DNA of 64,000 nucleotides from an uncultured virus (IMG/VR IMGVR_UViG_3300030688_000011) (IMGVR_UViG_3300030688_000011); one strand, 5' to 3'; shown: positions 11,803-32,282, numbered from the stretch's first letter. Notes: generated by a model not told the origin, from the sequence alone. A program made the numbers and translations.

Positions 11803-12360
11803 TTACCAAATCAGGTTATGCAGATTGAGGTACTTGGCGGGAACCGTGTCAGTCAGCCACACGCCATTAGGGGCAAGATAGAAGGATAAACCCTCTTCAT
11901 GCATTGCGGCTGCATCGACAGGTACCACTATAGGGTTACCATGTCGCGACCCTACTGTCCGTGCGGTGTCACACAGAGCGGAAAGATGGACGTGCTGCCG
12001 CTTGCCCTTGAGCAAGCCCTGCTTTTTGATTGAGTCGAGAAACCGGGTGGCGGTTCCGTGGTAGAGAATGCCGGGAGGGATAACGACCTCGTACTTCAGG
12101 TCTACCTCAATACTGTGACCTTGCACGGCCCGGATAGATTTTCCGTCGTCCGAGAACTGGAACCGCTTCTTGTCGTTGTCTTCCACGACTTCATCGAGTT
12201 CCTCGCGATTGATTTTATATCCCTTACTCGCCAGACCAGTCAACAGGTTGGATACGGTACACCAACCATCTGAAGTAAGAGTGAGGGAAGCCTCTTCAGG
12301 TTTATGCCGGAGTACAAGACTCATGAACCTGCTCGTTCGGACTAGGGCTTTGTTATCCAT
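11803..12360 (-). CDS. kptA: RNA 2'-phosphotransferase Tpt1/KptA
   Basis: SRFMSLVLRHKP, NDKKRF, IRAVQGHS, LYHGT, RQHVHLS, NGVWL. Confidence 0.93.
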   Translation of the reverse strand: MDNKALVRTSRFMSLVLRHKPEEASLTLTSDGWCTVSNLLTGLASKGYKINREELDEVVEDNDKKRFQFSDDGKSIRAVQGHSIEVDLKYEVVIPPGILYHGTATRFLDSIKKQGLLKGKRQHVHLSALCDTARTVGSRHGNPIVVPVDAAAMHEEGLSFYLAPNGVWLTDTVPAKYLNLHNLIW

Positions 12361-13249
12361 GTCAAGGTGATTGTACCACAGTCTTACAAAAGTTCAACCT
12401 CAAGTATCGCCCTCTCGTACTCCTCGACTTCGGAGTGCCAACTCTCAGCGTAGGTCTCCATGATACCACTCTTGGAGTCCGGCCAGTCGCCGTACACTGT
12501 GGTCTCCATCTCATGAGTTGAGATGTCGTCGCCATGACGCTTCAGGTACGTGAGTCGGAGTCGGAACATCACACCTCGATGAGGGCCGATGACTGGTAGG
12601 GTTTGAACTCATCGAAGAATTCGCCTAGTTTCCCTTTGAACTTCTTCGACCGCACCGTGTGATTCCGCCAGTTCACACCGGCCTTCGTCAGACGGATAGC
12701 CGCACATTGAGACCACCACACCATGGGGGAGGGTCGTTTCCCTTAGAGAGAATGTTGCGACAAGCCAACAGGTCGAGGACTAGGCTTCGCTTTGCTTCAC
12801 CAATCTCGGCTGCTGTGTACTTAGGATTTGAGAACACTTGCTTGACCTGACCACGTGGGTACATCTTTCGTGCCATTTTATCTGCCCAGTCTTCCATTTA
12901 TCGCCTACCAGCCTTGGCGTCCCGCTCGGCTCTAAACTCTTGGATGGTCGGGCCGATGTAGCGGACAAGCTTGCGGGTACCATCCTCTTCCCTGACGTAG
13001 AACGCATCGGGAGGGAGTTCCATCAGGGCGTCTTCCAAAGATTTTTGGGTGGACTTCATAGCTTCAAGAGCGTGGACGGCGACGAACACGGTAGCTTCAT
13101 CTTCACTGAAACCGTTGACTGTCGCCATGTCAAAGCACCGTTGTGCGACGTGCTCGGTAGTGCATAGCAACCTGAGTCGTTCACGGTAGCCTTCAAGTAT
13201 ACCGGCCTTCAGAGCGGTGTCCATGGGTTCCATTTGCTCTCCTGAAATA

Positions 13250-13336
13250 TGGTGACCCCGGCAGGATTCGAACCTGCGATGTGCTTTCACACGCGAGTTT
13301 AGGAAACTCGTGCCTTGTCCGCTAGACTACGGGGTC
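13250..13336 (-). tRNA. tRNA-Arg(CCT) with long variable arm
   Basis: GACCCCG/CGGGGTC-ACCA; arm CGAGT-TTCCTAA-ACTCG; 16-nt variable region; TTCGAAT loop. Confidence 0.88.
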
Positions 13337-13569
13337 AAACTTGTATTCTACTCTACAACCAATGCTTCAGGTAGTTGTCTGGGAACTTATTCTTGGAGCG
13401 AACCTCGGTGATGTCCGCTTCCGGGTCGCCCAACTTATCCAGAGCTACCAAGTCTTCAGCCAGACCGGCACGGTGACGGCTGTGAATGAACTTCTTCAGC
13501 CCTGCGGTGTTGCGGCGTTCGCCCTTCTTGCCGCAGCAAAAGTCGGCTCCCATCGCTGGGGGAAACTTC

Positions 13570-13959
13570 TCAGCCTTGAACCCGCGTTGGTGATTCGTCT
13601 TGCTCATCGTCCTCTCCAGCTACTTCCTTGAGCGTATCCATGAAGTCCACCGGCTTCCAGCCAGCCGCTTCCATAATCTCCGGGAACGTACCGTTCGCCT
13701 TCTCCGTGGGAACAACCACCCACTCACATGCACAACCCGGCCACAGGCTGGGGAATATGCCTTGGTTCTCCATCTCCTCGGTCATCTCCACGCCGTCGAG
13801 AGCCGCCTGTCGGTCTTGCTTACACGATCCACACATCCCAGCGAAGATGTACTCTTCTGCTGCTTCTTGAGACTCAAAGCCGGAGCGGGATGGGTTGGGC
13901 TCGTCAGATTCTCGTGCCGGGAGGTACAGTGCGGAAAAATCAGGCATTCGTATCACCAA
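13570..13959 (-). CDS. hypothetical protein
   Basis: ORF with Cys motifs; true start probably ATG near 13948. Confidence 0.55.
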   Translation of the reverse strand: MVIRMPDFSALYLPARESDEPNPSRSGFESQEAAEEYIFAGMCGSCKQDRQAALDGVEMTEEMENQGIFPSLWPGCACEWVVVPTEKANGTFPEIMEAAGWKPVDFMDTLKEVAGEDDEQDESPTRVQG

Positions 13960-14179
13960 TCAGGTACAGGTTATTGTCGCTCGACCCACAAACTGCGATG
14001 CCGTCCAGATACCACTTACACTCTTGAGACCCGATGGTGCCGACCAGCCGGGGGCACTCTTCAAAATCCACCATGTGAAGGCTCGTTACCCTGCGCCCGT
14101 CCATTGTCTCCGCCTCGGTGATCCCTCGTGTCGGCACTACCACCGTACTTACATCTAGGTTATTCATACTAGCTAATAC

Positions 14180-14262
14180 TGGAGGGCGCGACAGGATTCG
14201 AACCTGCATTTTCAATTCCACTTACGTTTAACGACTTAGAAGGTCGCCTCGATTACACACCC
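14180..14262 (-). ncRNA. atypical tRNA-like RNA (TCT anticodon arm, no normal D-arm)
   Basis: acceptor GGGTGTG/CGCGCCC-TCCA, T-arm GCAGG-TTCGAAT-CCTGT, arm GCGAC-CTTCTAA-GTCGT placed only 8 nt after the acceptor stem. Confidence 0.7.
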
Positions 14263-14514
14263 CAAAGGTTACGCTGCGATGTCTGTGGTTCTCTCGTTCT
14301 TGGATGACCTTACACACATCTTGGGTGCGTGAGACACGTTGACGAACGTGTCCCACTTCCCTTTGCACGCACACGTGTTGGGGTCTACCTTGTGCTCATC
14401 ATCGCCCAGCAAGTCCTGCAACTTGGTCTGGCCGAAGAGCATACGTACGATAGGTGTGATAAACATATGTGTTCTCCTGTCAGTTGAATTCGTTTATAAT
14501 GCGTGGATGAAACA

Positions 14515-14736
14515 TCAGGATGCCTTGACGAAGGTCCCGCCATCCAGAGCCTTGCGAATGTACCGCATGAGAGTAATGGCCTTCTCGGTTGAGTTCAAGG
14601 TGGCTCCGCCAATGTCTTCGAGCGAGACGGGAAAGGCATATTCGACGCCATCCACCGTTACGTTGTAAAAGGCGTTACCCGTCCTATAGAACGAAAACCT
14701 TGCGGTGTTGTCCTTCACAATCTTCTTGATGTCCAT
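14515..14736 (-). CDS. small hypothetical protein
   Basis: AGGA RBS; MDIKKIVKDNTARF...LMRYIRKAL. Confidence 0.6.
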   Translation of the reverse strand: MDIKKIVKDNTARFSFYRTGNAFYNVTVDGVEYAFPVSLEDIGGATLNSTEKAITLMRYIRKALDGGTFVKAS

Positions 14737-15052
14737 ATGCTCATCCTTCCTTTCAGTTTGACTACTCAGCCATGCAGCTTTGTCTAGACCTATGCCTCGG
14801 TCTGAGTGGCTTCTAACGATGTCCCTTATCTCCGACACTCATGACTCCTTCAACGTACTGCTCTTGCAGATACCTGTCTACTTCTTGGTCAATCTCAGCC
14901 ATGGACTTCATGATGAACGCTTCGGTTTCGAGGTCACCACGGTTATGGGCTTCAGCCGCCTTGTCCATCATGCTCGACTTTACGTAGGCCCGGATTTCTT
15001 CGAAGAGAGAGATTTTGTTTGCGTCTGCCATACTCTCTAATACGGAGACTCA

Positions 15053-15072
15053 GGGGAGTCTTACGACTCCCC
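15053..15072. terminator. GC-rich hairpin (terminator or processing site)
   Basis: GGGGAGTC-TTAC-GACTCCCC. Confidence 0.5.
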
Positions 15073-15084
15073 CTCGTGATTGCC

Positions 15085-15654
15085 CTAGTGGTCGAGTTCT
15101 ACGTTCCAGTAAGCCCAAGATGCCTTTTCAGCGTACAACCACTGCTGCCACTCAGTCCACTCAGGCCGAATCTGCTTGATGTGGAGTTTGAAATTGAACT
15201 TCGGGTCGTCAACCTTCGGTACGAACGGCTGACGGAGCAGCGGCATACGAGCCTGTTCAGGCGTCATGCCAGCCTTCGCCTTGTTGCAGCGAGAGCAAGC
15301 GGCTACGACGTTAGTCCAGACAGTGATACCACCCTGACACCGGGGCTTGACGTGCTCCACCTGAAACTCCTGAGTGGAGACGTGCTTACCGCAGTATTGG
15401 CAAGTACCCTCGTCACGCATGTAGATGTTGCGACGAGAACACGGAACAGCAAGGCGACGACGCTTGTGCCAAGCGTTCTTTACCTGAATGACACGGGGCA
15501 TACCCATCTCGAAAGAAGGGCTGCGAAGCATCCGCCCACCCTCATCTTCCTTGACGATGTTAGCGCGGTCTTCCCAGTACAGCTTGACCGCATTCTTCCA
15601 ACTCATGAAGCCAACCGGCTTCCAGTTTATGTCCAAAACGAGAGTGTCATTCAT
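15085..15654 (-). CDS. HNH endonuclease (McrA-like)
   Basis: SRRNIYMRDEGTCQYCG...VEHVKPRCQGG..VWTNVVAACSRCNKAK. Confidence 0.88.
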   Translation of the reverse strand: MNDTLVLDINWKPVGFMSWKNAVKLYWEDRANIVKEDEGGRMLRSPSFEMGMPRVIQVKNAWHKRRRLAVPCSRRNIYMRDEGTCQYCGKHVSTQEFQVEHVKPRCQGGITVWTNVVAACSRCNKAKAGMTPEQARMPLLRQPFVPKVDDPKFNFKLHIKQIRPEWTEWQQWLYAEKASWAYWNVELDH

Positions 15655-15747
15655 AGAACGCTCCTATCACCTAATGCTGTTTCATGTTGTCCCCCTTGCA
15701 CGGGTGGGTTCTCGCGAACCCTTCTTCGGATGGTGTTGCAACTACAG

Positions 15748-16179
15748 TCAAACTCTTTCGACGGAAATCAGGTTCCCGCCCTCGAAGACGGCATTGTACT
15801 CAAACCACTCCGCCTCCGGTACTTCAATCTCATTGCCCTCGTCATCCCTCGTGGTGGTCTTGCCTTCCGCGAAGTTGACGAAGAATAGCATCCCGCTATT
15901 TGCATCGCCGTAAAAGTTCAAGGTGCCGGTAAAGTCTACGAGGCCCCAGCAGATGTGAATCCGGGTCATGCATCCGACCAGCTTCATCAAGCCTTCGGCG
16001 TTCGGGTCGGAACGGTCTTCAACGTCGTAGTCCGATAGCACCAACTGGCCTTGCTCAGTAATCTGGTAGTCGTCAAAGAACCCAAGGTCAACCAAGCTCT
16101 TCGTCTGGAACTCTATACCAGAGGGGTCGGGCAATCCCGGTAGTGGGTACTCGCAACGTATTTTATCATACATACCCAT
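15748..16179 (-). CDS. hypothetical phage protein
   Basis: MGMYDKIRCEYPLP...EFQTKSL...EYNAVFEGG. Confidence 0.65.
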   Translation of the reverse strand: MGMYDKIRCEYPLPGLPDPSGIEFQTKSLVDLGFFDDYQITEQGQLVLSDYDVEDRSDPNAEGLMKLVGCMTRIHICWGLVDFTGTLNFYGDANSGMLFFVNFAEGKTTTRDDEGNEIEVPEAEWFEYNAVFEGGNLISVERV

Positions 16180-16186
16180 AAGTTTT

Positions 16187-16262
16187 TGGTGCAGACGGTG
16201 GGAGTTGAACCCACAACCATTCGATTAAGAGTCGAGTGCTCTGCCAGTTGAGCTACGTCTGC
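16187..16262 (-). tRNA. tRNA-Lys(CTT)
   Basis: canonical cloverleaf, loop CTCTTAA, encoded CCA. Confidence 0.92.
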
Positions 16263-16279
16263 GTCTCCTACTATAGGGT

Positions 16280-16718
16280 CTAAAAGCTTTCAATTCGTTC
16301 AACCACGTCGCTGTCCCAAATGCATCCACTAGCACAGTCCCACGTGTAATACCACATCATAGACAGCCGGTGCCGCCGCTGGTACGGGGCGATGATGATG
16401 CCCTGATACTTGGCTGCTACCTTCTTCCATTCAATACCCGTTGCACTGGGAAACTGTAAGGAAGTAAATCGGTAATTCTCAGCAAAATCTTCTAGCTGGG
16501 ACTCGGTGGAGATGTGGAGGATGTTGGCGTCAGGCTTGAGTACGACCCTATGCACCAGCTTACCGATACCAAAATCCTCCGCAGCACACCAACTGGCCCA
16601 GTCATGTTCGCCCTGCACCGAAACCCAAAGCGGGTTTATACTGCCAGCCTTCCCCATCTAGTTGCTTCCGCGACCATACATTCAGGAGAGGTTGATTGCT
16701 GTGGTGCAGAAGAATCAT
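16280..16718 (-). pseudogene. hypothetical protein, apparently frameshifted near 16630
   Basis: RBS+ATG at 16718 (MILLHHS...YKP) is out of frame with the LWVSVQGEHDW...WDCASGCIW body. Confidence 0.45.
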
Positions 16719-16725
16719 GACATCC

Positions 16726-17574
16726 TCAGAAATCGTTGTCGAGTGGAGGAAGAACTTCCGCTCTCGCCAACCTCTCTTGTCTCCAAGAGTTTATCATGCC
16801 CTCAAGTGCTCTTACAACAGAATTCATGTCGCACTTGTAGAACCCCGCACTCGCCGTCGAGTTCACTTCGAGTACACTACACTCATCGCCGGTTATACTT
16901 ACATCAAGTACATACGTGGCCGAGATGGGTGTCTCTCCAAGCTCCGCCATCCTCTGTGCGAACTGCATCATCGGATAGAAGAATGCGTTGGTGGAGTCTA
17001 TCCTCGCGTACATTACCTCGCCGAAACTACGGTACACACTTCCCGTTACAACCCTGCCGTCCACGACGAAGAATCTTGCCTCGTGGTCAATCGGCTTCGG
17101 TGGTGCGAACATAACCGGGGTGTCTCCTGTGATGGAGCAGTACCCTGTCTTTGCCAGTTCAACGATACGGTCACGCCAAGGCACCATGTCCTCCGGCGTC
17201 ATCAGACCACCGTTGAATACCTTGGTGTCATGCACCGGGCGGACGAACATCGGCTCCGTGAAGTCCATCTCACTGAACTTGCAGTACGTCGCGTCGTGGT
17301 TGAAGAAGTTGCGACCGAACCGTACTCCGTGCTGCTGCATGTCGAACTCAGGGCCTTGAAACGCACCGGGCTTCCAGCCACGCTCAGTAGCGATACGGGC
17401 CAACCCCATCGAGCCCCAGACCATCACATCCTCATCCGGGTCGAAGTCTACCTCTGGCTGCAAATGCTCCCGGACGCTGACGATGGTGTACTTGCTGTCG
17501 TTCGCATCCAATGCGTCGAGCAGCCCTTTGAAACCGAACTCGTTGAACAACCCTGCCTGTACTACGTGCTGCAT
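16726..17574 (-). CDS. ATP-grasp domain protein (DUF4343/R2K-like)
   Basis: MFVRP..DTKVFNG, EARFFVVDGRVVTGSVY, YVLDV......VLEVNST.SAGFY. Confidence 0.8.
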   Translation of the reverse strand: MQHVVQAGLFNEFGFKGLLDALDANDSKYTIVSVREHLQPEVDFDPDEDVMVWGSMGLARIATERGWKPGAFQGPEFDMQQHGVRFGRNFFNHDATYCKFSEMDFTEPMFVRPVHDTKVFNGGLMTPEDMVPWRDRIVELAKTGYCSITGDTPVMFAPPKPIDHEARFFVVDGRVVTGSVYRSFGEVMYARIDSTNAFFYPMMQFAQRMAELGETPISATYVLDVSITGDECSVLEVNSTASAGFYKCDMNSVVRALEGMINSWRQERLARAEVLPPLDNDF

Positions 17575-17977
17575 ATCTTCCCTTCCAACTCTTGAAACCT
17601 TTCCCACTTCGGGCCGTTGTAAATGAGATGGTAGCCACCCCACATGCCCAGAACTTGAAGTCCGTAATACTCTAAGGTCTCTTCCTTGCTGAGACCCGGC
17701 AGCGGATACGTTGGGGTCTCCCGTACGTATTCTTCACTCATCAGTCTTATCCTCGGAAGCGTCTTCCGTCCATTGCACTGAAGCTCGTTCCACATTCAAC
17801 GATAGCCCGTCGAGAAACAACATTACCTCGCTCCTTAGTTCCGCAGAGTCGAAGCGGTCGTACTTGTCCGAGACATCCAGCGTTAGGGTAAACTTTCTCA
17901 TAGTGATAGATACGTCACTTTCTTCCTTCAAACATGCAAAAAGTGAGATTGCTCTCACTCCTTGGTCGAACAAAACT

Positions 17978-18052
17978 TGGCTCCCAGTGAGGGACTCGAA
18001 CCCCCAACCATACGGTTAACAGCCGTAAGCTCTGCCATTGAGCTAACTGGGA
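17978..18052 (-). tRNA. tRNA-Asn(GTT)
   Basis: TACGG-CTGTTAA-CCGTA; G73-CCA. Confidence 0.92.
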
Positions 18053-18348
18053 ACATCTCTTTGCGGGGCAGACATTGAACCTGCGACCTCTCGGTTAGCC
18101 TCCGACATCTAGGCACCCGCAATCCTTTTGACCCACTTCTTTTCCTTGTCGTTCCATACTCTACGCTTAGAGTACCAACCGGAACGGAAGTGCATCACTA
18201 TTACTGTCATCCCCCAGTGGCGTGTACCCAGCCATCCGATGAGGGTAAGAAACAGTCCGTCGATGAAGTCTACTACATCCTCGGGTTGACGTAACTGTCT
18301 CAACATATCTTGGTTGCGGAGGTTGGGTTGGATGTCTTACCACATTTT

Positions 18349-18425
18349 TGGTTGGGAGAGCAGGGATCGAACCTGCAAACCTCTCGGGTCAGAACCGAGT
18401 GTTCTACCAATTGAACTATCTCCCA
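18349..18425 (-). tRNA. tRNA-Gln(CTG)
   Basis: CTCGG-TTCTGAC-CCGAG; U1-A72; CCA. Confidence 0.9.
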
Positions 18426-18432
18426 ATAACTT

Positions 18433-18509
18433 TGGTACCTCGGGTCGGATTTGAACCGACGATTTCCTCCTTATGAGAGAGGCGTCTTAGACCGCTGGAC
18501 GACCGAGGC
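18433..18509 (-). tRNA. tRNA-Met/Ile2(CAT)
   Basis: CCTCT-CTCATAA-GGAGG; CCA; Met vs Ile2 not resolved. Confidence 0.88.
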
Positions 18510-18510
18510 A

Positions 18511-19197
18511 CTACATTACTTGGGCTAAGTCGGTTCCACCTTTAGAGTTCAGACGGACATTGCGTTCCTTAGCCCATGCACTTACAACCTTGGATAACTT
18601 CCTACCCCTGCCCTTACCCATGTTCATCCCCCTATACGTGGGGGTCAGTGAGTGACAATTAGGACAAAGCAACCTACAATTACTATAGCTGTTATTGTAG
18701 CAATCCCCATCTACATGTTCGAGTTCAATTGGAACTGTGAGGGATTTGGGGTTCACTTTACTCCACCCACAGTCCTCGCATTTCCTTCCCCGCTCAATTA
18801 TCAGATAACCTTTGGCTGATCGTTCCGATGGAACTATTACTCCTGACTTCCATTTTACTAGTAGTACAGCCCGTCTTCTATCCCACGACTGCTTCGACTG
18901 TTTCCCTCCCTCCCTCGAAGCACATTTCCTAGAGCAGTGCCTCTGAGACAGCTTACCGTGGGTAAACGAACCGCCACATGTAATACACGTTTTATCATGA
19001 CAACAGGAAGGCTTATTGAGGAGCCCCGATGTATTGCGTCTATCAACAAGTTCTTCCTTACTTAGGGGGTAATCACGTAACCATAAACTGGCAGAACCCT
19101 TGGCTACTCCCAGTCGAAGCGCAATTTCTTTCAATGAAAGCCGATTCTGTACCCTCAGTGTAATTGCTTCATTCTGTTTTTCCATTAATCTTCGCAT
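18511..19197 (-). CDS. HNH homing endonuclease with N-terminal HTH
   Basis: SLKEIALRLGVAKGSASLWL; KCEDCG...ELEHVDG...N...LLCPNCHSLT. Confidence 0.85.
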   Translation of the reverse strand: MRRLMEKQNEAITLRVQNRLSLKEIALRLGVAKGSASLWLRDYPLSKEELVDRRNTSGLLNKPSCCHDKTCITCGGSFTHGKLSQRHCSRKCASREGGKQSKQSWDRRRAVLLVKWKSGVIVPSERSAKGYLIIERGRKCEDCGWSKVNPKSLTVPIELEHVDGDCYNNSYSNCRLLCPNCHSLTPTYRGMNMGKGRGRKLSKVVSAWAKERNVRLNSKGGTDLAQVM

Positions 19198-19267
19198 TTG
19201 AACCCCCTATAAGAGGTATGCGATAGTCGAAAAACCAGCATGACTAACCTACTGTAGGTACAAATTA

Positions 19268-19343
19268 TGGTGGGGCCGTTCGGCATCGAACCGAAATCTC
19301 ACCGCTTAAAAGGCGGGACTCTAGCCATTTGAGTTACAACCCC
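19268..19343 (-). tRNA. tRNA-Lys(TTT)
   Basis: CCGC-CTTTTAA-GCGG; CCA. Confidence 0.88.
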
Positions 19344-19384
19344 GAATTTGGGCAAACGTTTCATATAGTTCCTTTGCAAAACTT

Positions 19385-19461
19385 TGGTGCGCCGGGGTGG
19401 ATTCGAACCACCGTCATCTCGGGTAAGGGCCGAGTATAATAATCCGCTATACGACCGACGC
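19385..19461 (-). tRNA. tRNA with CTT anticodon (Lys), unusual C33/C38 loop
   Basis: CTCGG-CCCTTAC-CCGAG; intact acceptor and T arms; CCA. Confidence 0.8.
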
Positions 19462-19481
19462 AAAACTGGTACATCTAAACT

Positions 19482-19568
19482 TGGTGCGTCCGGAGGGATT
19501 CGAACCCCCGTTGGGAATCTCTCCCGCTGATTAAGAGTCAGGTGCATAAGCCACTCTGCCACGAACGC
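19482..19568 (-). tRNA. tRNA with CTT anticodon on a class II (Leu-like) body
   Basis: D-arm GCA-GAGTGGCTTA-TGC, CTGA-CTCTTAA-TCAG, V-arm GGGA-GAGAT-TCCC, A73-CCA. Confidence 0.85.
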
Positions 19569-19656
19569 ATATCCCTGTAAGCGGTACAATTGTGCCGGAT
19601 ACAGCTAAAACTAGGCTTTATCGGTAACATACTACCGGTATTGCCGACATCAAACT

Positions 19657-19730
19657 TGGCTCGGTCTCAGGGGGTCGAACCCCGGTTTCTAGGGTCAGAA
19701 CCTAGCGTCCTACCACTGAACGAAGACCGA
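19657..19730 (-). tRNA. tRNA-Gln(CTG)
   Basis: CTAGG-TTCTGAC-CCTAG; G73-CCA. Confidence 0.9.
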
Positions 19731-19746
19731 ACATGTGGAACTAAAC

Positions 19747-19845
19747 TGGTGCGGGTGGGGAGATTCTCACGTCCCCGTGGCACCTTACCCTCTGAGCGTC
19801 AAGACGTGAGTGTGTCGCGACTCAGATAGAGGGCACCTACCCCGC
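19747..19845 (-). ncRNA. tRNA-like RNA with CCA end and non-tRNA core
   Basis: GCGGG.../...CCCGC-ACCA; T-arm-like GGGGA-CGTGAGAATC-TCCCC; internal TCTGAG/CTCAGA helix. Confidence 0.6.
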
Positions 19846-19862
19846 ATACTGTGCTACTAAAC

Positions 19863-19953
19863 TGGCTCAGGGGGAGGGACTCGAACCCTCAGAGGGAATG
19901 GCTACCCGCTTGGTTAACAGCCAAGTACGCTGCCAGTTACGTTTTACCCCTGA
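19863..19953 (-). tRNA. tRNA-Asn(GTT) with long variable region and atypical D-arm
   Basis: TCAGGGG/CCCCTGA-GCCA; CTTGG-CTGTTAA-CCAAG; 18-nt variable region. Confidence 0.8.
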
Positions 19954-19974
19954 ACATCTCTGCTACTAAACTTA

Positions 19975-20078
19975 GGCCGACTCTCTCTTCGGCGTCACAC
20001 CACTTCAACTAAGACACATGCCTTCTACGCTTCTAACGTAGGCTTTCATGTACGTTCATCGCCGAAGCGAAACGCCGG
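19975..20078 (-). ncRNA. putative rod-like structured RNA
   Basis: nested helices CCGGC/GTCGG, CTTCGGCG/CGCCGAAG, TACATG/CATGTG, CTACG/CGTAG; flanked by the TGCTACTAAAC spacer repeat. Confidence 0.5.
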
Positions 20079-20190
20079 GTAGGTGTCACCCTTCTTGTGC
20101 TACTAAACCGGGAGGGCTTGGGATTTCACGAACGTTCCACAGACGGGAGCTACCCGCCAGATGTCTATCCGTCCCTCTTAGTCCCTTTCG

Positions 20191-20258
20191 TTCACTTGGC
20201 GGGAGTCGAACCCGCATCAGCCGCCAACGCGGCTGCTCTACCATTGAGCTACAAGCAA
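20191..20258 (-). ncRNA. tRNA-like RNA without an anticodon loop
   Basis: normal D-arm GCTC-AATGGTA-GAGC and T-arm GCGGG-TTCGACT-CCCGC, but arm GCCGC-GTTG-GCGGC; no CCA. Confidence 0.65.
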
Positions 20259-20281
20259 CTAAGGAACCTCAACTCAAACTA

Positions 20282-20356
20282 TGGCTGGCAAGGCCGGATT
20301 CGAACCGACACCTTCTCCGGTAACAGCGGAGCATCATACCATTAGACCACTTGCCA
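20282..20356 (-). tRNA. tRNA-Asn(GTT), C38 variant
   Basis: CTCCG-CTGTTAC-CGGAG; G73-CCA. Confidence 0.9.
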
Positions 20357-20360
20357 ACAA

Positions 20361-20670
20361 CTCTCACCCGGTGCTCCCGGACAGCGGACTTACTCAGTTC
20401 CGGTCGAATGGGTACGATGCCGGAACACTGCCTCTGCTGGAGGATTTACACGCATGACCTCCATTGAACTTATCGGGCACTGACTTCTAAAGCTACATCC
20501 GGCCAACGCCGCATGGTGACCAACCCTCTCGTCACATCCCCGGATTACGAGTCCGGTGCTTTGTTCAGACTCATCACGTAGGTTCCAGCCCTCGTGAATC
20601 TGTCTAGGTCTAGTCGTGACCAACGGCTGGAACCACTGGTGCCCGAAACCGAGACGGATGTTCTCGCCTC
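20361..20670 (-). ncRNA. unassigned ~310-nt pseudoknotted RNA
   Basis: perfect helices 20581-90/20625-34, 20473-80/20639-46, 20495-501/20655-61 (crossing), 20397-403/20420-26; lies between two tRNAs. Confidence 0.6.
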
Positions 20671-20676
20671 AAAACT

Positions 20677-20752
20677 TGGTGCCCCCGGTAAGAATCGAAC
20701 TCACATCCACGACTTAGAAGGTCGGTGTCCTTGTCCGTTGAACGACGGGGGC
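20677..20752 (-). tRNA. tRNA-Arg(TCT)
   Basis: CGAC-CTTCTAA-GTCG; A20; CCA. Confidence 0.92.
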
Positions 20753-20809
20753 TGTTATCAGGGATTGAACTCAGATCATAAATGAAAATACTATCTGACT
20801 TTAAACCCC

Positions 20810-21460
20810 TTGAGTATGCAAACTAAAACAAAAGTCACTTGCCTAACTTGCCAAGTAGAATTTGAAAAGGCTGAAGCTGAAATCCGTAGATCATCTCCCG
20901 GTCGTAACTTCTGCTCACGTTCCTGCTCAGCCAAACTCCGTCGTGGTCTTCAAAGAAACCCACCAAAACCTCGTACTTGTAAATCCTGCGGGGCTGAGTT
21001 TACATGCTCAACATCCCACCGGTCTTACACCTTCTGCTCCCCATGTTCTGGAAACAAGGAACATCTACTTACTCCCCACCTTCGGCTACGCAAACGCCAC
21101 GGGTCTAATGAGTATATCCGAGTAGACTTCCGCCTTATGACTCTTGAAGAGGCGATGAATTCACCTTATGTAAAAGGCAAGCACCGTAGCCACATCTATG
21201 ATTTCGTCAGGCGGTTCAACCGTTCATGGAACAAACACCTTCTCAAACTACCTTGCTTGTACTGTGGTTATAGTAAGCACAGTGAACTTGCTCACATCAA
21301 AGGCATAAAAACCTTCTCACTTGATTCTACTCTCGGCGAAATCAACAATGTCAGCAACGTCTTACCTCTGTGTCGTAACTGCCACTGGGAGTTTGATAAC
21401 GACCTCCTATCGCTTGAAACCATAAAGTTGGTGCGCCCGAGAGGATTCGAACCTCTGTAG
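20810..21460 (+). CDS. HNH endonuclease with Zn-binding repeats, antisense to tRNA operon
   Basis: FCSRSC; CLYCGYSKH..LAHIK...N...LCRNCHWEFD; 3' end overlaps tRNA-Arg(ACG). Confidence 0.82.
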   Translation: MSMQTKTKVTCLTCQVEFEKAEAEIRRSSPGRNFCSRSCSAKLRRGLQRNPPKPRTCKSCGAEFTCSTSHRSYTFCSPCSGNKEHLLTPHLRLRKRHGSNEYIRVDFRLMTLEEAMNSPYVKGKHRSHIYDFVRRFNRSWNKHLLKLPCLYCGYSKHSELAHIKGIKTFSLDSTLGEINNVSNVLPLCRNCHWEFDNDLLSLETIKLVRPRGFEPL

Positions 21461-21517
21461 AGAACTCTCGTTCAACAGATTCGTAGTCTGGTGCCTCATC
21501 CGCTAGGCTACGGGCGC
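21429..21517 (-). tRNA. tRNA-Arg(ACG) with long variable arm
   Basis: CAGA-CTACGAA-TCTG; V-arm GAAC-GAGA-GTTC; A20; CCA. Confidence 0.88.
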
Positions 21518-21526
21518 ATATATTTT

Positions 21527-21797
21527 GCACATCCTGTTCGTAGCAGGTAAAGGCAAGTACTGTGCCTTGTTCTTAGGATGTGGGCGAGAATGCTGAACTC
21601 CCTGTCCACCCCTCCCGGCCTTTCAACCGAGAGCATCCTGATTGCTCGGAACCTTTTCCAGTGTCGTCGCGACGACCCACTTGCAAGTGGTGAAGGTATC
21701 GAACCTCCTCGGAACCGTCTTGGCTTGTGCGGCCAGCATTTACTGACATATCCGGGCTATCACGCCCGATGAGGCACATCGCCTCCCCTTTCACACA
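21527..21797 (-). ncRNA. unassigned ~270-nt structured RNA with T-loop-like hairpin
   Basis: helices 21528-35/21575-82, 21589-95/21734-40, CCACTT/AAGTGG, GTCGTC/GACGAC, GGAGG-TTCGATA-CCTTC. Confidence 0.55.
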
Positions 21798-21803
21798 AAG
21801 ACT

Positions 21804-21893
21804 TGGTGTACCCGGCAGGACTCGAACCTGCATGAGACTTTCGTCAGCCCACCTTCGGAGGGTGGCGGCTAATCCAATTCACACCACGGGTAC
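21804..21893 (-). tRNA. tRNA-Arg(CCG) with long variable arm
   Basis: CCACC-CTCCGAA-GGTGG; V-arm GAC-GAAA-GTC; CCA. Confidence 0.85.
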
Positions 21894-21896
21894 AAA

Positions 21897-22152
21897 ACGA
21901 CGGTGCTTTGCGAAGCTCCTCACCATTCCGTGAGGCAGGGTTGGTTACCCGCGTCTTCCGTCTAACTCAAAAGTAAGGTGGGGGTCTTCACTTCCCGAAC
22001 GTCGTCCGCTACCAGTGTCACAGCCGCCCTAATACTTCCGGCTACGCCTTTGCCTTACTGATGCTTCTAGCATAGGTTCTGGCGGTTGATTCCCTGTACC
22101 AGTTTCCCGGTACCGGTCTTTTATCCCTTGCGGGTACCGCTACGCCCATGCC
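21897..22152 (-). ncRNA. unassigned ~255-nt structured RNA
   Basis: AGTAAGG/CCTTACT (21972-78/22053-59) crossing CCGCCAG/CTGGTAGCGG (22079-85/22006-15); GNRA-capped hairpins; no ORF. Confidence 0.5.
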
Positions 22153-22160
22153 AAAACTTT

Positions 22161-22235
22161 TGGGGGGCAATCCGGGAATCGAACCCGAGTAACCGATGCC
22201 ACAGATCGGCGTTCTGCCACTGAACTAATCGCCCC
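22161..22235 (-). tRNA. tRNA-His(GTG)
   Basis: G-1:C73; CCGAT-CTGTGGC-ATCGG; CCA. Confidence 0.92.
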
Positions 22236-22259
22236 ACATCTTTTCAAAACTTTGCCTTT

Positions 22260-22335
22260 TGGCGGGGGAGCCGGGATTTGAACCCGGAAAAATGGTTTTG
22301 GAGACCATCGGTTTGCCAGTTGAGCCTACTCCCCC
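22260..22335 (-). tRNA. tRNA-Trp(CCA)
   Basis: ATGGT-CTCCAAA-ACCAT; G73-CCA. Confidence 0.92.
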
Positions 22336-24287: not shown

Positions 24288-25274
24288 TCATTTTGCCAAT
24301 GACTCCCGCAAATCCTTCAGGAACTGGTTCTGCTGAGCAAGCTGCTTCGCGGACTGAGCCAACTTCTCAGTGTGATACTTCACGTCTTCGTTGGCACTCT
24401 TCAGGGCCGCACGGTAGATGGAGAGAGGAGTGCAACGCTGTGACTCCTTCATCCACTTCTTATTGTCGGTGTCCCAGTGTTCCATCATGGCGTCAGCGAC
24501 CAGCTTGGTTACAGCCTTGCGGTCGCACTCAGGTTGCAGCGGTGAAGCTTCCTCAGCCGCTACGACATCTGCACGTAGTTGGAAGTAAGCTTCGTTCAGT
24601 TTGTCCAGAGACCAGTTTCCCGCACGGATGTCAAGCAGCACATCCACGTTCGGACGCGGGAAGGTCATGCTCCCAGTCTTCAGGAACTCAAGGCACTCGT
24701 CCAGAGAGCGGACAAGGTGCATCCCGGCCTTGGAGTCATAGCCGTGCTCGTTGATGAGTTCGTCACGCTGCCCGTGCTTGCCCGAACCCGACAGGCCGTT
24801 GATGCGTTCGTACTGGGACTTCGCCAGACCAAGGAAGGCCGACGCATGACCGGACGCGAGGAACAGATGCTTGTTGGGCAGGATGTACTTGTCCCATACA
24901 CTGGGATGGGTCACGAAGCTGTCCTTGATGGCGTCAGGCACGAAGAGGTAGCTGAGGATGGTTGGGTTGCCCTTGAGGGCGAGACCTGCCCAACGCCGAA
25001 GGCTGTACACCTTCAGGTCAACATCGCCTACCTTGTTCTTCTGGCTGTCAGGAGACGTGGTGATGGTAACGTGCCCGTCCTTCTTTGGGTCTTCGTTGCC
25101 GATGGTGAGTTCCTGTGCTGGGGTTCCGATGAAGACACCGGCCACGTCAAGGTCAGACTTACCCTCGATACGTGCCCCATGCTGGTACGAGCCTGACGCG
25201 AACGCCATGATGATGCGGTTCAGCCTCAGCTTTTCGCTGTTCAGTACATGACCGACTAGCTCACCGTTAAACAT
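24288..25274 (-). CDS. RlaP-like Pol-beta family nucleotidyltransferase
   Basis: GSYQHG...SDLDVAGVF, KGNPTILSYLF, GYDSKAGMHLVR, FPRP. Confidence 0.8.
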   Translation of the reverse strand: MFNGELVGHVLNSEKLRLNRIIMAFASGSYQHGARIEGKSDLDVAGVFIGTPAQELTIGNEDPKKDGHVTITTSPDSQKNKVGDVDLKVYSLRRWAGLALKGNPTILSYLFVPDAIKDSFVTHPSVWDKYILPNKHLFLASGHASAFLGLAKSQYERINGLSGSGKHGQRDELINEHGYDSKAGMHLVRSLDECLEFLKTGSMTFPRPNVDVLLDIRAGNWSLDKLNEAYFQLRADVVAAEEASPLQPECDRKAVTKLVADAMMEHWDTDNKKWMKESQRCTPLSIYRAALKSANEDVKYHTEKLAQSAKQLAQQNQFLKDLRESLAK

Positions 25275-31529: not shown

Positions 31530-32249
31530 TTGAACTACGTAGGTCTTATACAGGAGCCCTACACCATGACACTCGTAACCCTCATTTGTTCGAAATGTGG
31601 TAAAGAATTCGAAAGACCACTGAAAACTCACAACCGTAATTTACGTTTAGGCTACACGACGGCCCAGTGCAGTGCGACCTGTCAAGTGGAACACCTCCGC
31701 CCAAAACCATGTGAACATTGTGGAAACACCACAACTAATCCAAGATTTTGTTCATCTAGATGTAATGCTTTAGCTACCTCCAAGTTCAAACCAAAACGGC
31801 CAAAACTTGGTCATTGCCGAGTATGTGGTGACTCAATCAGTAGCCAGAGAGTATATTGCAAGACTTGTAGAAAACTAGCGGTTTCCAATTCTAAAGATTG
31901 GTCGGGGGTGACATTAGGGGAATTACGTATCAAAAGAAAAGCTAATGGGGACGCTACTGTTTGGGCACACGCCAAAAGGGTGTTTTTCGCCTCCCCTCTA
32001 CCGAAAGAATGTTGGATATGCGGATACTTTAAGCATATCGACGTGTGTCACATCAAGCCTGTGGCTGGGTTTGCGGATGCCACACTTATCTGTGAGATAA
32101 ATAACCTGAAAAACCTAATGGGTCTTTGTCGTAATCATCATTGGGAGTTCGATCATGGACAGCTATCCAAAGAGGATAAAGAAAAATTGGTACTCCCGGT
32201 AGGATTCGAACCTACGTCTTGCTCTAATCTGGAGCTAAACCGGTTATAA
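31530..32249 (+). CDS. HNH endonuclease with Zn-binding repeats, antisense to tRNA operon 2
   Basis: CWICGYFKHIDVCHIK...INNLKNLMGLCRNHHWEFD; likely start ATG 31566; 3' end overlaps tRNA-Ile(TAT). Confidence 0.82.
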   Translation: MNYVGLIQEPYTMTLVTLICSKCGKEFERPLKTHNRNLRLGYTTAQCSATCQVEHLRPKPCEHCGNTTTNPRFCSSRCNALATSKFKPKRPKLGHCRVCGDSISSQRVYCKTCRKLAVSNSKDWSGVTLGELRIKRKANGDATVWAHAKRVFFASPLPKECWICGYFKHIDVCHIKPVAGFADATLICEINNLKNLMGLCRNHHWEFDHGQLSKEDKEKLVLPVGFEPTSCSNLELNRL

Positions 32250-32282
32250 GGCGGTTGCGTTAGACCACTACGCTACGGGAGC
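32188..32282 (-). tRNA. tRNA-Ile(TAT) with long variable arm
   Basis: ACCG(C)-CTTATAA-(C)CGGT; V-arm GCTC-CAGATTA-GAGC; CCA. Confidence 0.85.

What the first reader, a model, noticed from the sequence alone, without database searches (positions are those of the whole stretch)
13250..21893. Class-I tRNAs carrying long variable arms: three Arg isoacceptors
Arg-CCT (13250), Arg-ACG (21429) and Arg-CCG (21804) each have a 16-18-nt variable region with its own hairpin, while keeping ArgRS identity elements (A20, C35, A73). Bacterial long V-arms are normally restricted to Leu, Ser, Tyr and Sec. The three arms differ in sequence, suggesting repeated selection. Inference: the arm may sterically block tRNA-cleaving or modifying toxins, or alter charging.
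Basis: partly seen in the sequence, partly recalled or inferred. Interest (0 to 1): 0.7.

Follow-up and report, generated by a model that had tools for sequence, protein, structure and literature searches.

The report
Phage arginine tRNAs with extra arms
A giant soil phage carries arginine, lysine, asparagine and isoleucine tRNA genes with an extra hairpin arm that textbooks reserve for serine, leucine and tyrosine tRNAs, and related phages keep the same hairpin, so it appears to be a selected design whose purpose is untested.

Summary
tRNA-Arg(CCT) 13250-13336, Arg(ACG) 21429-21517 and Arg(CCG) 21804-21893 are 7/5 cloverleaf tRNAs with encoded CCA, A20, C35 and A73. Each has a 16-18 nt variable region that folds into a 3-4 bp hairpin capped by GAAA or GAGA.

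The feature is wider than reported. Lys(CTT), Asn(GTT) and Ile(TAT) genes in the same jumbo-phage array also carry long arms. A seventh gene (about 14180-14262) is an Arg(TCT)-type tRNA with a rearranged D arm.

Homologues in other huge-phage contigs, and in the cultured phages Tunturi 5 and XacN1, keep the hairpin through compensatory changes. One strain variant of the window's own Arg(CCT) has two compensated pairs. Variable regions fold far better than shuffles.

Arg(CCT) and Arg(ACG) have arginine-type bodies. Arg(CCG) has a weak D stem and a leucine-like D arm.

Best reading: these are working Arg decoders, covering 93% of the phage's Arg codons, whose extra arm is selected, possibly to evade tRNA-targeting defence. 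That role has a published precedent (Retron-Eco7) but is untested here.

I found no paper describing the design. The scan noted it before on other DNA (e1-5618481, e1-295098).

The parts
13250..13336 (-). tRNA-Arg(CCT), 87 nt, Arg-type body. The variable arm lies at 13278-13293 (16 nt; stem GTGT/GCAC, loop GAAA, tail ATC).
   Evidence: ARAGORN. Rfam 56.6 bits. Parse. In DNA runs X3 and X6, one variant contig each changes 13282, 13284, 13289 and 13291 so that two stem pairs are compensated. Homologues L236, L280 and L273 keep the same layout.
21429..21517 (-). tRNA-Arg(ACG), 89 nt, Arg-type body. The variable arm lies at 21457-21474 (18 nt; stem GAAC/GTTC, loop GAGA, tail TCTAC).
   Evidence: ARAGORN. 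Rfam 56.5 bits. Parse. Its D arm matches Arg(CCT) at 16 of 19 positions.
21804..21893 (-). tRNA-Arg(CCG), 90 nt. The variable arm lies at 21832-21848 (17 nt; stem GAC/GTC, loop GAAA, tail TCAT). The D stem is weak (2 of 4 pairs) and the D arm is most like the phage's Leu tRNAs.
   Evidence: ARAGORN. Rfam 37.6 bits. D-arm comparison. T arm matches Arg(CCT) at 16 of 17 positions.
19482..19568 (-). tRNA-Lys(CTT), 87 nt. The variable arm lies at 19510-19525 (GGGAGAGATTCCCAAC). Two normal-length Lys(CTT) genes lie at 16187-16262 and 19385-19461.
   Evidence: Homologues with the same D and anticodon arms carry other hairpins: L131, L136, and Tunturi 5 Lys(TTT) at L001:27425-27509. L188 has the same body with a 5-nt variable loop.
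19863..19953 (-). tRNA-Asn(GTT), 91 nt, discriminator G. The variable arm lies at 19891-19908 (18 nt; 3-bp stem, 8-nt loop). Normal-length Asn(GTT) genes lie at 17978-18052 and 20282-20356.
   Evidence: Rfam 37.1 bits.
32188..32282 (-). tRNA-Ile(TAT), 95 nt. The variable arm lies at 32216-32238 (23 nt; stem GCTC/GAGC, loop CAGATTA).
   Evidence: L103 Ile(TAT) has nearly the same loop with a changed stem. Rfam 58.6 bits.
14180..14262 (-). Arg(TCT)-type tRNA with a rearranged core. There is no D arm at the usual place, and 23 nt containing TGGA (like G18 G19 A20) lie between the anticodon arm and the T arm. It has a 7-bp acceptor stem, discriminator T and CCA.
   Evidence: Rfam tRNA 32.8 bits at 14183-14262. 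ARAGORN does not call it. Sequence read. The wider class is described.
20677..20752 (-). tRNA-Arg(TCT), 76 nt, with a normal 4-nt variable loop. It is the only canonically shaped Arg tRNA in the DNA held.
11803..12360 (-). Tpt1/KptA RNA 2'-phosphotransferase gene, an RNA repair or splicing end-healing enzyme, about 0.9 kb from Arg(CCT).
   Evidence: Pfam PF01885, E 8.4e-49.
24288..25274 (-). RlaP-family nucleotidyltransferase gene (RNA-repair-pathway Pol beta family), beside the tRNA array.
   Evidence: Pfam PF10127, E 1.1e-14. PHROG 388 nucleotidyltransferase, E 1.6e-43.

Best explanation
These are genuine tRNA genes in the large tRNA complement of a peat-soil jumbo phage. At least 41 such genes lie in the roughly 173 kb held. 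The phage is distantly related to Acidobacteriota phage Tunturi 5 and to XacN1-like phages.

Shown here:
- An ordinary class-I tRNA body carries a short hairpin inserted where class-II tRNAs have their variable arm. The body has a 7/5 cloverleaf, the Arg identity set A20/C35/A73, a standard T loop and an encoded CCA. The hairpin is usually capped by a GNRA loop.
- Relatives keep the hairpin's structure through compensatory substitutions, so it is a selected module.

Inferred:
- The RNAs are made, charged with arginine by the host ArgRS, and used as the phage's main Arg decoders. EF-Tu and the ribosome already accept this shape in Leu, Ser and Tyr tRNAs.

Inferred more weakly:
- The arm is kept because it changes the surface or shape that tRNA-targeting nucleases and other tRNA-directed defence or takeover enzymes read. 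That would let phage copies survive while host copies are destroyed. In these phages the arm is gained on Arg, Lys, Asn and Ile tRNAs and lost on some Leu tRNAs, and the arrays sit beside RNA-repair genes.
For: 1. They are real tRNAs: ARAGORN and Rfam at 56.6, 56.5 and 37.6 bits. 23 of 24 window tRNAs end in CCA.
2. The identity elements A20, C35 and A73 are present in all three. A20 and C35 are the main Arg determinants (review PMC9976931, passages read). Arg(CCT) and Arg(ACG) have Arg-type D arms (16 of 19 to each other, next best is Arg(TCT)) and G15/C48 rather than the A15-U48 that E. coli LeuRS needs.
3. No normal-arm gene for CCT, ACG or CCG exists in the window or in the other 110 kb of the same genome (all 17 Rfam tRNA hits of G001 were examined). 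The codons these three read make up 319 of 342 Arg codons (93%) in 20 annotated ORFs. Standard-code translations give strong full-length family matches.
4. The hairpin is selected:
   - A strain variant turns stem GTGT/GCAC into GAGA/TCTC.
   - L236 (463-kb contig) has GAGC/GCTC, L280 has GAC/GTC, L273 has GTC/GAC, L276 has GAG/CTC and L285 has GG/CC. All have a GAAA loop and the same D-arm type.
   - Of 17 Arg tRNAs sharing that D arm, 6 have the hairpin and 11 have a 5-7 nt loop.
   - Variable regions fold far beyond shuffles.
5. The design recurs:
   - 43 distinct long-arm tRNAs with non-Leu/Ser/Tyr anticodons among 447 ARAGORN calls in the loci gathered.
   - Cultured Tunturi 5 has a long-arm Lys(TTT).
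   - Cultured XacN1 has long-arm Lys, Gly, Thr, Cys and Asn tRNAs.
6. The context fits a conflict over tRNA:
   - Tpt1 and RlaP genes lie in or beside the array.
   - Tunturi 5 has an RtcB-type ligase in its array.
   - XacN1 has PNKP/Hen1 (paper PMC5852040, passages read) and an RNA ligase (annotated in the record).
7. There is a precedent. Retron-Eco7 PtuAB cuts E. coli tRNA-Tyr in the variable loop. Phage SP15 tRNA-Tyr, with a 5-nt longer loop, escapes. Swapping or deleting that loop abolishes the rescue (PMC12673091).
Against: - There is no evidence here of expression, processing, charging or use. The one RNA library held only two exact contigs, on spacers at 20689-20946 and 21098-21302, and none across a long-arm tRNA.
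- Close relatives with and without the hairpin coexist, so the arm is dispensable for decoding and could be nearly neutral.
- Most characterised anticodon nucleases cut in the anticodon loop (recalled), far from the arm.
- The host and its defence systems are unknown. The host assignment rests on one protein at 42% identity and on the peat source.
- Arg(CCG) has a defective D stem and a Leu-like D arm, so it may not work like the other two.
- GNRA loops often mediate RNA or protein contacts (recalled), which could point to a different role.
Confidence: 0.4

Rival explanations
1. The hairpin is a tolerated, nearly neutral insertion. It arose by slippage or gene conversion in the variable loop and persists because ArgRS, EF-Tu and the ribosome do not care. 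It stays paired only because an unpaired insert would misfold the tRNA. It has no role of its own.
For: Long-arm and short-arm versions of the same tRNA body coexist among close relatives: 6 against 11 Arg, and L188 against L131 for Lys. Stem lengths vary from 2 to 5 bp. Phage tRNA arrays evolve fast and also hold odd copies, such as 20190-20258.
Against: The design recurs in many isotypes and in distant phages. Half of the arms are capped by GNRA or UNCG loops (21 of 41 against 0.4 expected). The same tail of about 3 nt and even the same 10-14 nt hairpin recur in different tRNAs. This looks more constrained than neutral persistence. In this phage all major Arg decoders carry it.
Confidence: 0.25
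2. The arm is a handle for a phage-encoded or host partner rather than a shield. Candidates are a modification, repair (Tpt1, RlaP, ligase) or sorting factor that marks phage tRNAs as its own.
For: GNRA-capped hairpins are typical docking modules (recalled). RNA-repair genes sit in or beside the arrays of all three phages examined: this window, Tunturi 5 and XacN1.
Against: No candidate partner was identified. Arm sequences differ between tRNAs of one phage. The repair genes are common in large phages regardless (recalled).
Confidence: 0.12
3. The RNAs are not decoders. They are decoys, sponges or regulators that mimic tRNAs, or decaying pseudogenes. This applies especially to Arg(CCG), and to the Lys and Asn copies that have normal paralogues.
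For: Arg(CCG) has only 2 of 4 D-stem pairs and the lowest model score of the three Arg genes (37.6 bits); the long-arm Asn copy scores 37.1. Lys(CTT) and Asn(GTT) long-arm copies are redundant with two normal copies each. In Mukai et al. 2017 (PMC5389517, passages read), some irregular acidobacterial tRNAs were charged but not used in translation.
Against: Acceptor, T and anticodon arms are intact, the discriminators match the isotype (A for Arg, Lys and Ile; G for Asn), and CCA is encoded. For CCT, ACG and CCG no other phage copy exists in the DNA held.
Confidence: 0.12
4. The arm switches identity. The tRNAs are charged by LeuRS, SerRS or TyrRS and reassign Arg, Lys, Asn or Ile codons, like nematode nev-tRNAs or allo-tRNAs.
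For: A73 plus a long arm is compatible with LeuRS, which in E. coli ignores the anticodon and the arm (PMC9976931). Arg(CCG) has a Leu-like D arm and differs from Leu(CAG) by one anticodon base. Cellular genomes do hold Ser-, Leu- or Tyr-type bodies with an ACG anticodon.
Against: These three tRNAs read 93% of the phage's own Arg codons, so mischarging would wreck the phage's proteins. Arg(CCT) and Arg(ACG) have Arg-type D arms, G15/C48, and A rather than G at position 73. Their stems are shorter and their 3' tails longer than in the phage's own Ser tRNAs: 3-5 nt unpaired against 1. None can form an 8/4 structure.
Confidence: 0.07
5. The extra bases are an intron-like insert, removed after transcription by cleavage and religation. 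The phage's Tpt1 would remove the junction 2'-phosphate.
For: A Tpt1 gene lies 0.9 kb away, and Tunturi 5 annotates a 'tRNA splicing ligase' in its array. Removing the hairpin alone would leave a normal 4-5 nt variable loop.
Against: The inserts are plain 10-18 nt hairpins. They have no bulge-helix-bulge motif and are far too small for a group I intron. No splicing endonuclease was seen. No RtcB or PF09414 ligase was found in the 140 kb of G001, though that record is a fragment. Bacterial Tpt1 and RtcB are generally read as repair enzymes (recalled).
Confidence: 0.04

Closest known systems
Class II tRNAs (bacterial Leu, Ser, Tyr, Sec)
   Same: A stem-loop of 3-7 bp, often with a tetraloop, inserted between positions 45 and 48. 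The overall L-shape is accepted by EF-Tu and the ribosome. The phage's own Leu and Ser tRNAs have GCAA, GAAA and TTCG loops like the arms discussed here.
   Different: The anticodons and identity sets are Arg, Lys, Asn and Ile. The D arms of Arg(CCT) and Arg(ACG) are class-I type (TA at 8-9, 4-bp stem). The arms are shorter, with 3-5 unpaired bases on the 3' side against 1 in Ser and 2 in Leu of the same phages.
allo-tRNAs and irregular tRNAs of Acidobacteria and soil metagenomes (Mukai et al. 2017, PMC5389517; passages and section 14 read)
   Same: A long variable arm combined with non-Ser/Leu/Tyr anticodons, including Arg (AGA/AGG, CGC) and Ile (UAU). The habitat (peat and forest soil) and likely host phylum are the same.
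   Different: allo-tRNAs have 8/4 or 9/3 acceptor/T stems, a long D stem with a tetraloop, and mostly G73 or U73 (serine identity). The tRNAs here are 7/5 with a normal D loop and A73, and nucleotide 8 cannot pair with nucleotide 65 in 6 of 6.
Phage SP15 tRNA-Tyr that evades Retron-Eco7 PtuAB (PMC12673091, passages read; companion paper PMC11555353 seen only as a search listing)
   Same: A phage-encoded tRNA whose variable region differs from the host's, where that difference decides escape from a defence nuclease.
   Different: tRNA-Tyr already has a long arm and only its length changes. Function was shown by experiment there, and nothing has been tested here.
Nematode nev-tRNAs (PMC3333845; abstract seen in the search listing)
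   Same: Long-arm tRNAs whose anticodons belong to class-I amino acids.
   Different: They are eukaryotic. Per that abstract they are class II tRNAs with non-Leu/Ser anticodons and decode an alternative code for leucine, so they change codon meaning. The Arg(CCT) and Arg(ACG) bodies here are Arg-type.
Phage tRNAs that escape anticodon nucleases through anticodon-loop changes (PMC10264068), and the T5 tRNA-Lys that neutralises PARIS (PMC11464382); both seen as search listings only
   Same: The idea that phage tRNA arrays are counter-defence sets whose members differ from host tRNAs at the features nucleases read.
   Different: Those differences lie in the anticodon loop or are sequence variants. 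Here a whole extra arm is added.

Membership tests
tRNA (Rfam RF00005), canonical 7/5 cloverleaf | Score at or above the curated gathering score (29 bits) | tested here: met
   56.6 bits for CCT, 56.5 for ACG and 37.6 for CCG.
tRNA (Rfam RF00005), canonical 7/5 cloverleaf | 7-bp acceptor stem, 5-bp T stem, 7-nt T loop, 7-nt anticodon loop with U33 | tested here: met
   ARAGORN drawings; parse and stem check.
tRNA (Rfam RF00005), canonical 7/5 cloverleaf | Paired D stem closing a loop with G18 G19 | tested here: inconclusive
   Met for Arg(CCT) and Arg(ACG), with 4 pairs each. Arg(CCG) has G18 G19 but only 2 of 4 D-stem pairs.
tRNA-Arg (substrate of ArgRS) | A20 in the D loop and C35, the main determinants, plus G/U36 and A/G73 | tested here: met
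   All present in the three sequences. The determinants are as stated in PMC9976931.
tRNA-Arg (substrate of ArgRS) | Aminoacylation with arginine | not testable with these tools
   Needs in vitro charging or charged-tRNA sequencing.
Class II tRNA (Leu/Ser/Tyr/Sec) | Variable region longer than 10 nt that forms a stem-loop | tested here: met
   16, 18 and 17 nt with 4, 4 and 3 bp stems.
Class II tRNA (Leu/Ser/Tyr/Sec) | Anticodon of Leu, Ser, Tyr or Sec | tested here: not met
   The anticodons are CCT, ACG and CCG.
Class II tRNA (Leu/Ser/Tyr/Sec) | Serine type: G73, and a long stem with about 1 unpaired base before position 48 | tested here: not met
   All three have A73. They have 3-5 unpaired bases, against 1 in most (5 of 7) Ser tRNAs of these phages.
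Class II tRNA (Leu/Ser/Tyr/Sec) | Leucine type (E. coli rules): A73, A15-U48, Leu-type D arm | tested here: inconclusive
   All three have A73. Arg(CCT) and Arg(ACG) have G15/C48 and Arg-type D arms. Arg(CCG) ends its variable region in T and its D arm is closest to the phage's Leu tRNAs (15 of 21).
allo-tRNA (Mukai et al. 2017) | 8/4 or 9/3 acceptor/T-stem composition | tested here: not met
   Nucleotide 8 cannot pair with nucleotide 65 in 6 of 6 long-arm tRNAs, and all have 5-bp T stems.
allo-tRNA (Mukai et al. 2017) | Long D stem with a tetraloop; G73 or U73 | tested here: not met
   D loops are 8-11 nt with GG. The discriminator is A in 5 of 6 and G in the Asn tRNA. The family's features are taken from PMC5389517.
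Intron-containing tRNA gene | Bulge-helix-bulge motif, or a group I intron, at the insert | tested here: not met
   The inserts are simple hairpins within 16-23 nt variable regions, without flanking bulges. Removal at the RNA level was not testable; the RNA run did not cover them.

The most novel reading that the evidence does not exclude
Large phages may systematically re-architect their tRNAs so that shape-reading tRNA nucleases cannot act on them while synthetases and ribosomes still can. They add a variable arm to Arg, Lys, Asn, Ile, Gly, Thr and Cys tRNAs. They remove it from some Leu (and, per an earlier scan note, Ser) tRNAs. They even re-thread the D arm of an Arg tRNA. This would be a general layer of counter-defence at the level of tRNA structure, and a natural library of orthogonal tRNA scaffolds.
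Probability: 0.3. Interest if true: 0.85.

Novelty: new variant of a known kind. Interest (0 to 1): 0.62.

Why it matters
Textbooks and reviews state that in bacteria only Leu, Ser, Tyr and Sec tRNAs have a long variable arm. [quoted passage not shown]

This finding shows a conserved, selected exception in phage tRNA arrays. Examples already sit unremarked in two cultured phages, XacN1 and Tunturi 5, so experiments are possible now.

It bears on an old question, why phages carry tRNAs, by offering a structural feature that can be deleted and tested against tRNA-targeting defence systems.

It also bears on how ArgRS, LysRS, AsnRS and IleRS tolerate an extra arm. That is useful for engineering orthogonal or tagged tRNAs.

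Tried and rejected
- **Close relatives.** Megablast of 12 kb against GenBank phages gave no match. Protein-seeded and exact-pattern scans of viral contigs gave nothing. The metagenome scan gave only four short, near-identical contigs, 97-100%, which were not used further.
- **Whole genome.** None is held. G001 turned out to be a fragment of the same genome that starts at window position 33803.
- **BLAST of single tRNAs against GenBank phages**. It is too insensitive for 80-90 nt queries. It gave one normal Arg tRNA and three unannotated or mis-annotated places for the rearranged class.
- **RNA evidence.** One RNA run with a 0.05 word share gave no contig across any long-arm tRNA. Absence of cover proves nothing, and DNA carry-over in that library cannot be excluded for the two spacer contigs.
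- **Searches of G001** for RtcB, ArgRS (PF00750) and RNA ligase (PF09414) gave no match. The record is 44% complete, so this shows little.
- **Pairwise alignment with cheap gaps** gave noisy nearest neighbours. I replaced it with a D-arm comparison.
- **MAFFT alignment A2 of Arg tRNAs** did not align the arms consistently, so no pair counts were made on it.
- **The list of 10-nt hairpin cores** was selected for pairing, so it was not used as a test.
- **Rearranged class.**
  - The partner-shuffle control did not discriminate (2.82 against 2.79).
  - The proposed 3-bp helix is only 56.6% paired in the MAFFT register.
  - Its support is the set of nine different complementary triplets at one place.
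  - In the window's own copy only 2 bp can form.
  - A heuristic search found no further member in L001-L004.
- **Pfam at permissive thresholds** on 16 unannotated ORFs gave nothing usable.
- One search was one base too long and one search had too many words. One search was a script error, fixed.

Full report
**What the window is.** PHROG and Pfam matches mark it as part of a large tailed phage. They include rIIA, rIIB, NAD-dependent DNA ligase, thymidylate synthase, Ku, HNH endonucleases, an R2K ATP-grasp enzyme, Tpt1 and RlaP.
- An IMG/VR record of 139,754 bases (G001; CheckV estimate 44% complete) is identical to the window from position 33803 onward. About 173 kb of a roughly 300-kb genome is therefore in hand.
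- The closest named phage for the 305-aa ATP-grasp protein is Tunturiibacter phage Tunturi 5, at 42% identity. It is a 309-kb jumbo phage of Acidobacteriota.
- Another protein is closest to Xanthomonas jumbo phage XacN1, at 38%.
- 23 peat-metagenome DNA runs hold at least half of the sampled words of 13200-22400.
- The host assignment is therefore tentative.

**The observation.** ARAGORN finds 24 tRNA genes, all on the minus strand, and 23 end in CCA. The three flagged Arg genes are real.
- Rfam tRNA scores are 56.6, 56.5 and 37.6 bits against a cut-off of 29.
- Each has a 7-bp acceptor stem, a 5-bp T stem and a 7-nt anticodon loop. Each has GG followed by A in the D loop (A20), C35 and discriminator A.
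- Their variable regions are 16, 18 and 17 nt. They fold into 4, 4 and 3 bp stems capped by GAAA, GAGA and GAAA, followed by 3-5 unpaired bases.
- Arg(CCG) is the weak member. Only 2 of its 4 D-stem pairs form. Its D arm is most like the phage's own Leu tRNAs (15 of 21). Yet its T arm matches Arg(CCT) at 16 of 17 positions and its acceptor stem shares the CCCG of the other Arg genes.

**The feature is wider than reported.**
- One of three Lys(CTT) genes (19482-19568), one of three Asn(GTT) genes (19863-19953) and the Ile(TAT) gene (32188-32282) also carry variable regions of 16, 18 and 23 nt with hairpins. Each keeps the discriminator expected for its anticodon: A, G and A.
- A further Rfam hit that ARAGORN misses (14183-14262, 32.8 bits) is an Arg(TCT)-type gene with no D arm in the usual place.
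- The only Arg gene of ordinary shape in the DNA held is Arg(TCT) at 20677-20752. None of the 16 other tRNA genes of G001 is an Arg gene.

**Is the arm selected?** Four lines of evidence say yes.
1. Laying contigs of independent peat DNA runs on the region showed one variant contig in each of two runs (depth 4.8 and 4.2). It differs from the window inside the Arg(CCT) arm at 13282, 13284, 13289 and 13291. In tRNA sense this turns stem GTGT/GCAC into GAGA/TCTC, which is two compensated pairs. A second contig with the 13282 change alone stops aligning at 13281. I take that one as an edge effect from another tRNA.
2. Scans of IMG/VR found homologues with the same D arm and the same layout but different stems:
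   - L236 (a 463-kb contig) has GAGC/GCTC.
   - L280 has GAC/GTC, L273 has GTC/GAC, L276 has GAG/CTC and L285 has GG/CC. All have a GAAA loop. L291 has GGT/ACC with a 7-nt loop.
   - Of 17 Arg tRNAs sharing that D arm, 6 have the hairpin and 11 have 5-7 nt loops.
3. The Lys gene has relatives with identical D and anticodon arms and other hairpins: L131 (GCC/GGC), L136 (GTCC/GGAC) and Tunturi 5 Lys(TTT) (GGAC/GTCT). All are followed by AAC. L188 is a short-loop relative. The Ile(TAT) arm shares its loop sequence with L103 while the stem differs.
4. Over 41 distinct long-arm tRNAs with non-Leu/Ser/Tyr anticodons, the variable regions fold far better than shuffles:
   - Summed energy is -136.4 against -27.0 (sd 6.4).
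   - 35 of 41 form hairpins of 3 bp or more, against 13.5 expected.
   - 21 of 41 have GNRA or UNCG caps, against 0.4 expected.
   - These rows are related to one another and came from scans aimed at Arg and Lys, so the counts say nothing about isotype frequencies.

**How widespread is it?**
18 of the 120 loci are ARAGORN Arg(ACG) genes of 81-97 nt. At least 83 more belong to the rearranged class.
- The same pattern over 185,579 species genomes also hit its limit, at 121 loci. Only 13 of those are ARAGORN tRNAs, and most have Ser-, Leu- or Tyr-type bodies with G73. That is a different phenomenon, closer to the suppressor-like tRNAs of Mukai et al. Five more are rearranged-class members.
- Two cultured, published phages carry the design:
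  - Tunturi 5 has an 85-nt Lys(TTT).
  - XacN1 has Lys(CTT), Gly(TCC), Thr(TGT), Cys(GCA) and Asn(GTT) genes of 86-91 nt, annotated as plain tRNAs.
  - XacN1's Lys and Cys arms share the same 14 nt. Thirteen of those also occur in L236 Arg(CCT).
  - The window's Arg(CCG) hairpin core equals that of L280 Arg(CCT).
- Tunturi 5 also has Leu(CAG) and Leu(TAA) genes with variable loops of only 7 and 5 nt. In this group of phages the arm is therefore both gained and lost.

**What it most likely does.**
- Charging with arginine is the simplest reading.
  - A20 and C35 are the main determinants (PMC9976931).
  - Arg(CCT) and Arg(ACG) have Arg-type D arms and G15/C48, not the A15-U48 needed by E. coli LeuRS.
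  - A at position 73, short stems and long 3' tails speak against SerRS.
- The three genes read CGT, CGC, CGA, CGG and AGG. These make up 319 of 342 Arg codons in 20 annotated ORFs. Mischarging would damage the phage itself. Standard-code translations match protein families well.
- Why the arm is kept is inferred only.
  - The array sits among RNA-repair genes (Tpt1, RlaP). Tunturi 5 has RtcB in its array. XacN1 has PNKP/Hen1 and an RNA ligase.
  - Defence systems that cut tRNAs are common. For one of them the variable loop of a phage tRNA has been shown to decide escape (PMC12673091).
  - A bacterial Schlafen cuts both host and phage tRNAs, including Lys, Met and Ile species (PMC13056530).
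- I therefore rank 'working decoder whose arm evades tRNA-directed attack' first, at 0.4 overall. I am about 0.9 sure the genes and the selected hairpin are real, about 0.65 sure they decode, and about 0.35 sure of the evasion role.
- The rivals are a tolerated insertion, a docking handle, a non-decoding mimic, an identity switch and an intron.

**Comparison with what is known.**
- The tRNAs work like class II tRNAs in shape but are not members by anticodon or identity.
- They resemble allo-tRNAs in combining a long arm with Arg and Ile anticodons in acidobacterial settings, but fail every structural criterion of that family.
- Searches for a description of long-arm Arg, Lys, Asn or Ile tRNAs in phages found none. 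I also read passages of:
  - Mukai 2017.
  - Krahn 2020.
  - Al-Shayeb 2020 and Morgado 2019.
  - The Tunturi paper.
  - The XacN1 paper, which calls its tRNAs canonical.
- Supplementary tables of those papers were not opened and might list tRNA lengths.
- Earlier notes of this scan had already recorded the same design on other DNA. e1-5618481 covers Gly, Arg, Asn and Ile in a soil phage. e1-295098 covers the rearranged Arg tRNA and short-arm Leu tRNAs. My results agree with them but were obtained independently here.

**The rearranged Arg class (noticed in passing, partly followed).**
- In 66 aligned members the acceptor, anticodon and T stems pair in 99.6%, 94.5% and 98.8% of cells, with many double changes.
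- The bases right after T8 A9 are complementary to the three bases just before a conserved TAAY(T/C)GGA motif that lies after the anticodon arm.
- Nine different triplet pairs occur at that place: ACC/GGT, GCC/GGC, CAC/GTG, CGC/GCG, ATG/CAT, AGC/GCT, TTC/GGA, ACT/AGT and TCC/GGG.
- This suggests that one D-stem strand and the D loop, including the GG-A that mimics G18 G19 A20, have moved to the 3' side of the anticodon arm.
- The support is weaker than for the other stems. The shuffle control does not discriminate, and pairing is 56.6% in the MAFFT register. In the window's own copy only 2 bp can form.
- In GenBank phages the three BLAST matches are unannotated or lie under a 'hypothetical protein'.

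**Verdict.** The design is a new variant of a known kind. It is present but unremarked in public phage genomes and can be tested in two cultured systems.

Noticed in passing
window 14180-14262 (-): Arg(TCT)-type tRNA with no D arm at the usual place and a D-loop-like TGGA motif after the anticodon arm. It belongs to a class that made up at least 83 of the first 120 IMG/VR matches to an ACG-loop pattern and is not called by ARAGORN. It also occurs with ACG and CCT anticodons.
   Followed up: partly
window 20190-20258 (-): A 69-nt tRNA-like gene (Rfam 52.6 bits) with a 6-nt anticodon loop, so ARAGORN reports a 2-base anticodon. It is the only one of the 24 window tRNA genes without an encoded CCA.
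   Followed up: no
L001:6516-6594 and L001:6959-7036 (Tunturi 5, PP885688.1): Leu(CAG) and Leu(TAA) genes with Leu-type D arms but variable loops of only 7 and 5 nt. The arm is lost where it is normally present, in the same phage that has a long-arm Lys(TTT).
   Followed up: partly
window 11803-12360 (-), 24288-25274 (-), 16726-17643 (-): Tpt1 RNA 2'-phosphotransferase, an RlaP RNA-repair-type nucleotidyltransferase and an R2K ATP-grasp enzyme lie in or beside the tRNA array. HNH endonuclease genes sit inside it at 15085-15654 and 18511-19197.
   Followed up: partly
window 20689-20946 and 21098-21302: Contigs of an RNA library (run X24) match these stretches exactly, at 258 and 205 nt. The first runs from within Arg(TCT) into the spacer. 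This would fit transcription of the array as long precursors, but DNA carry-over cannot be excluded.
   Followed up: no
L335, L336, L355, L357, L339, L377, L307 (species genomes, mostly MAGs; two are Acidobacteriota): tRNAs with Ser-, Leu- or Tyr-type bodies (TG at 8-9, GAGTGG-type D loops, often G73) but an Arg ACG anticodon. They are possible missense-suppressor-like tRNAs in cellular genomes and are distinct from the phage Arg-type long-arm tRNAs.
   Followed up: no
L417:20564-20652 and L417:35203-35291 (XacN1); L236; L280: The same 14-nt hairpin plus tail occurs in XacN1 Lys(CTT) and Cys(GCA), and 13 of its 14 bases in L236 Arg(CCT). The window's Arg(CCG) hairpin core equals that of L280 Arg(CCT). 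This suggests either exchange of the arm between tRNA genes or convergence on a preferred sequence.
   Followed up: partly
L044, L045, L047, L062, L066 (IMG/VR): Elements with a T arm, an acceptor 3' strand and CCA, but with the CTACGAA motif only 13 nt from the best acceptor 5' strand. They are neither the normal nor the rearranged class, and their structure is not worked out.
   Followed up: no
window 33134-33226 (-): tRNA-Ser(TGA) has discriminator T instead of the G usual for bacterial Ser tRNAs. The other three Ser genes in the window have G.
   Followed up: no
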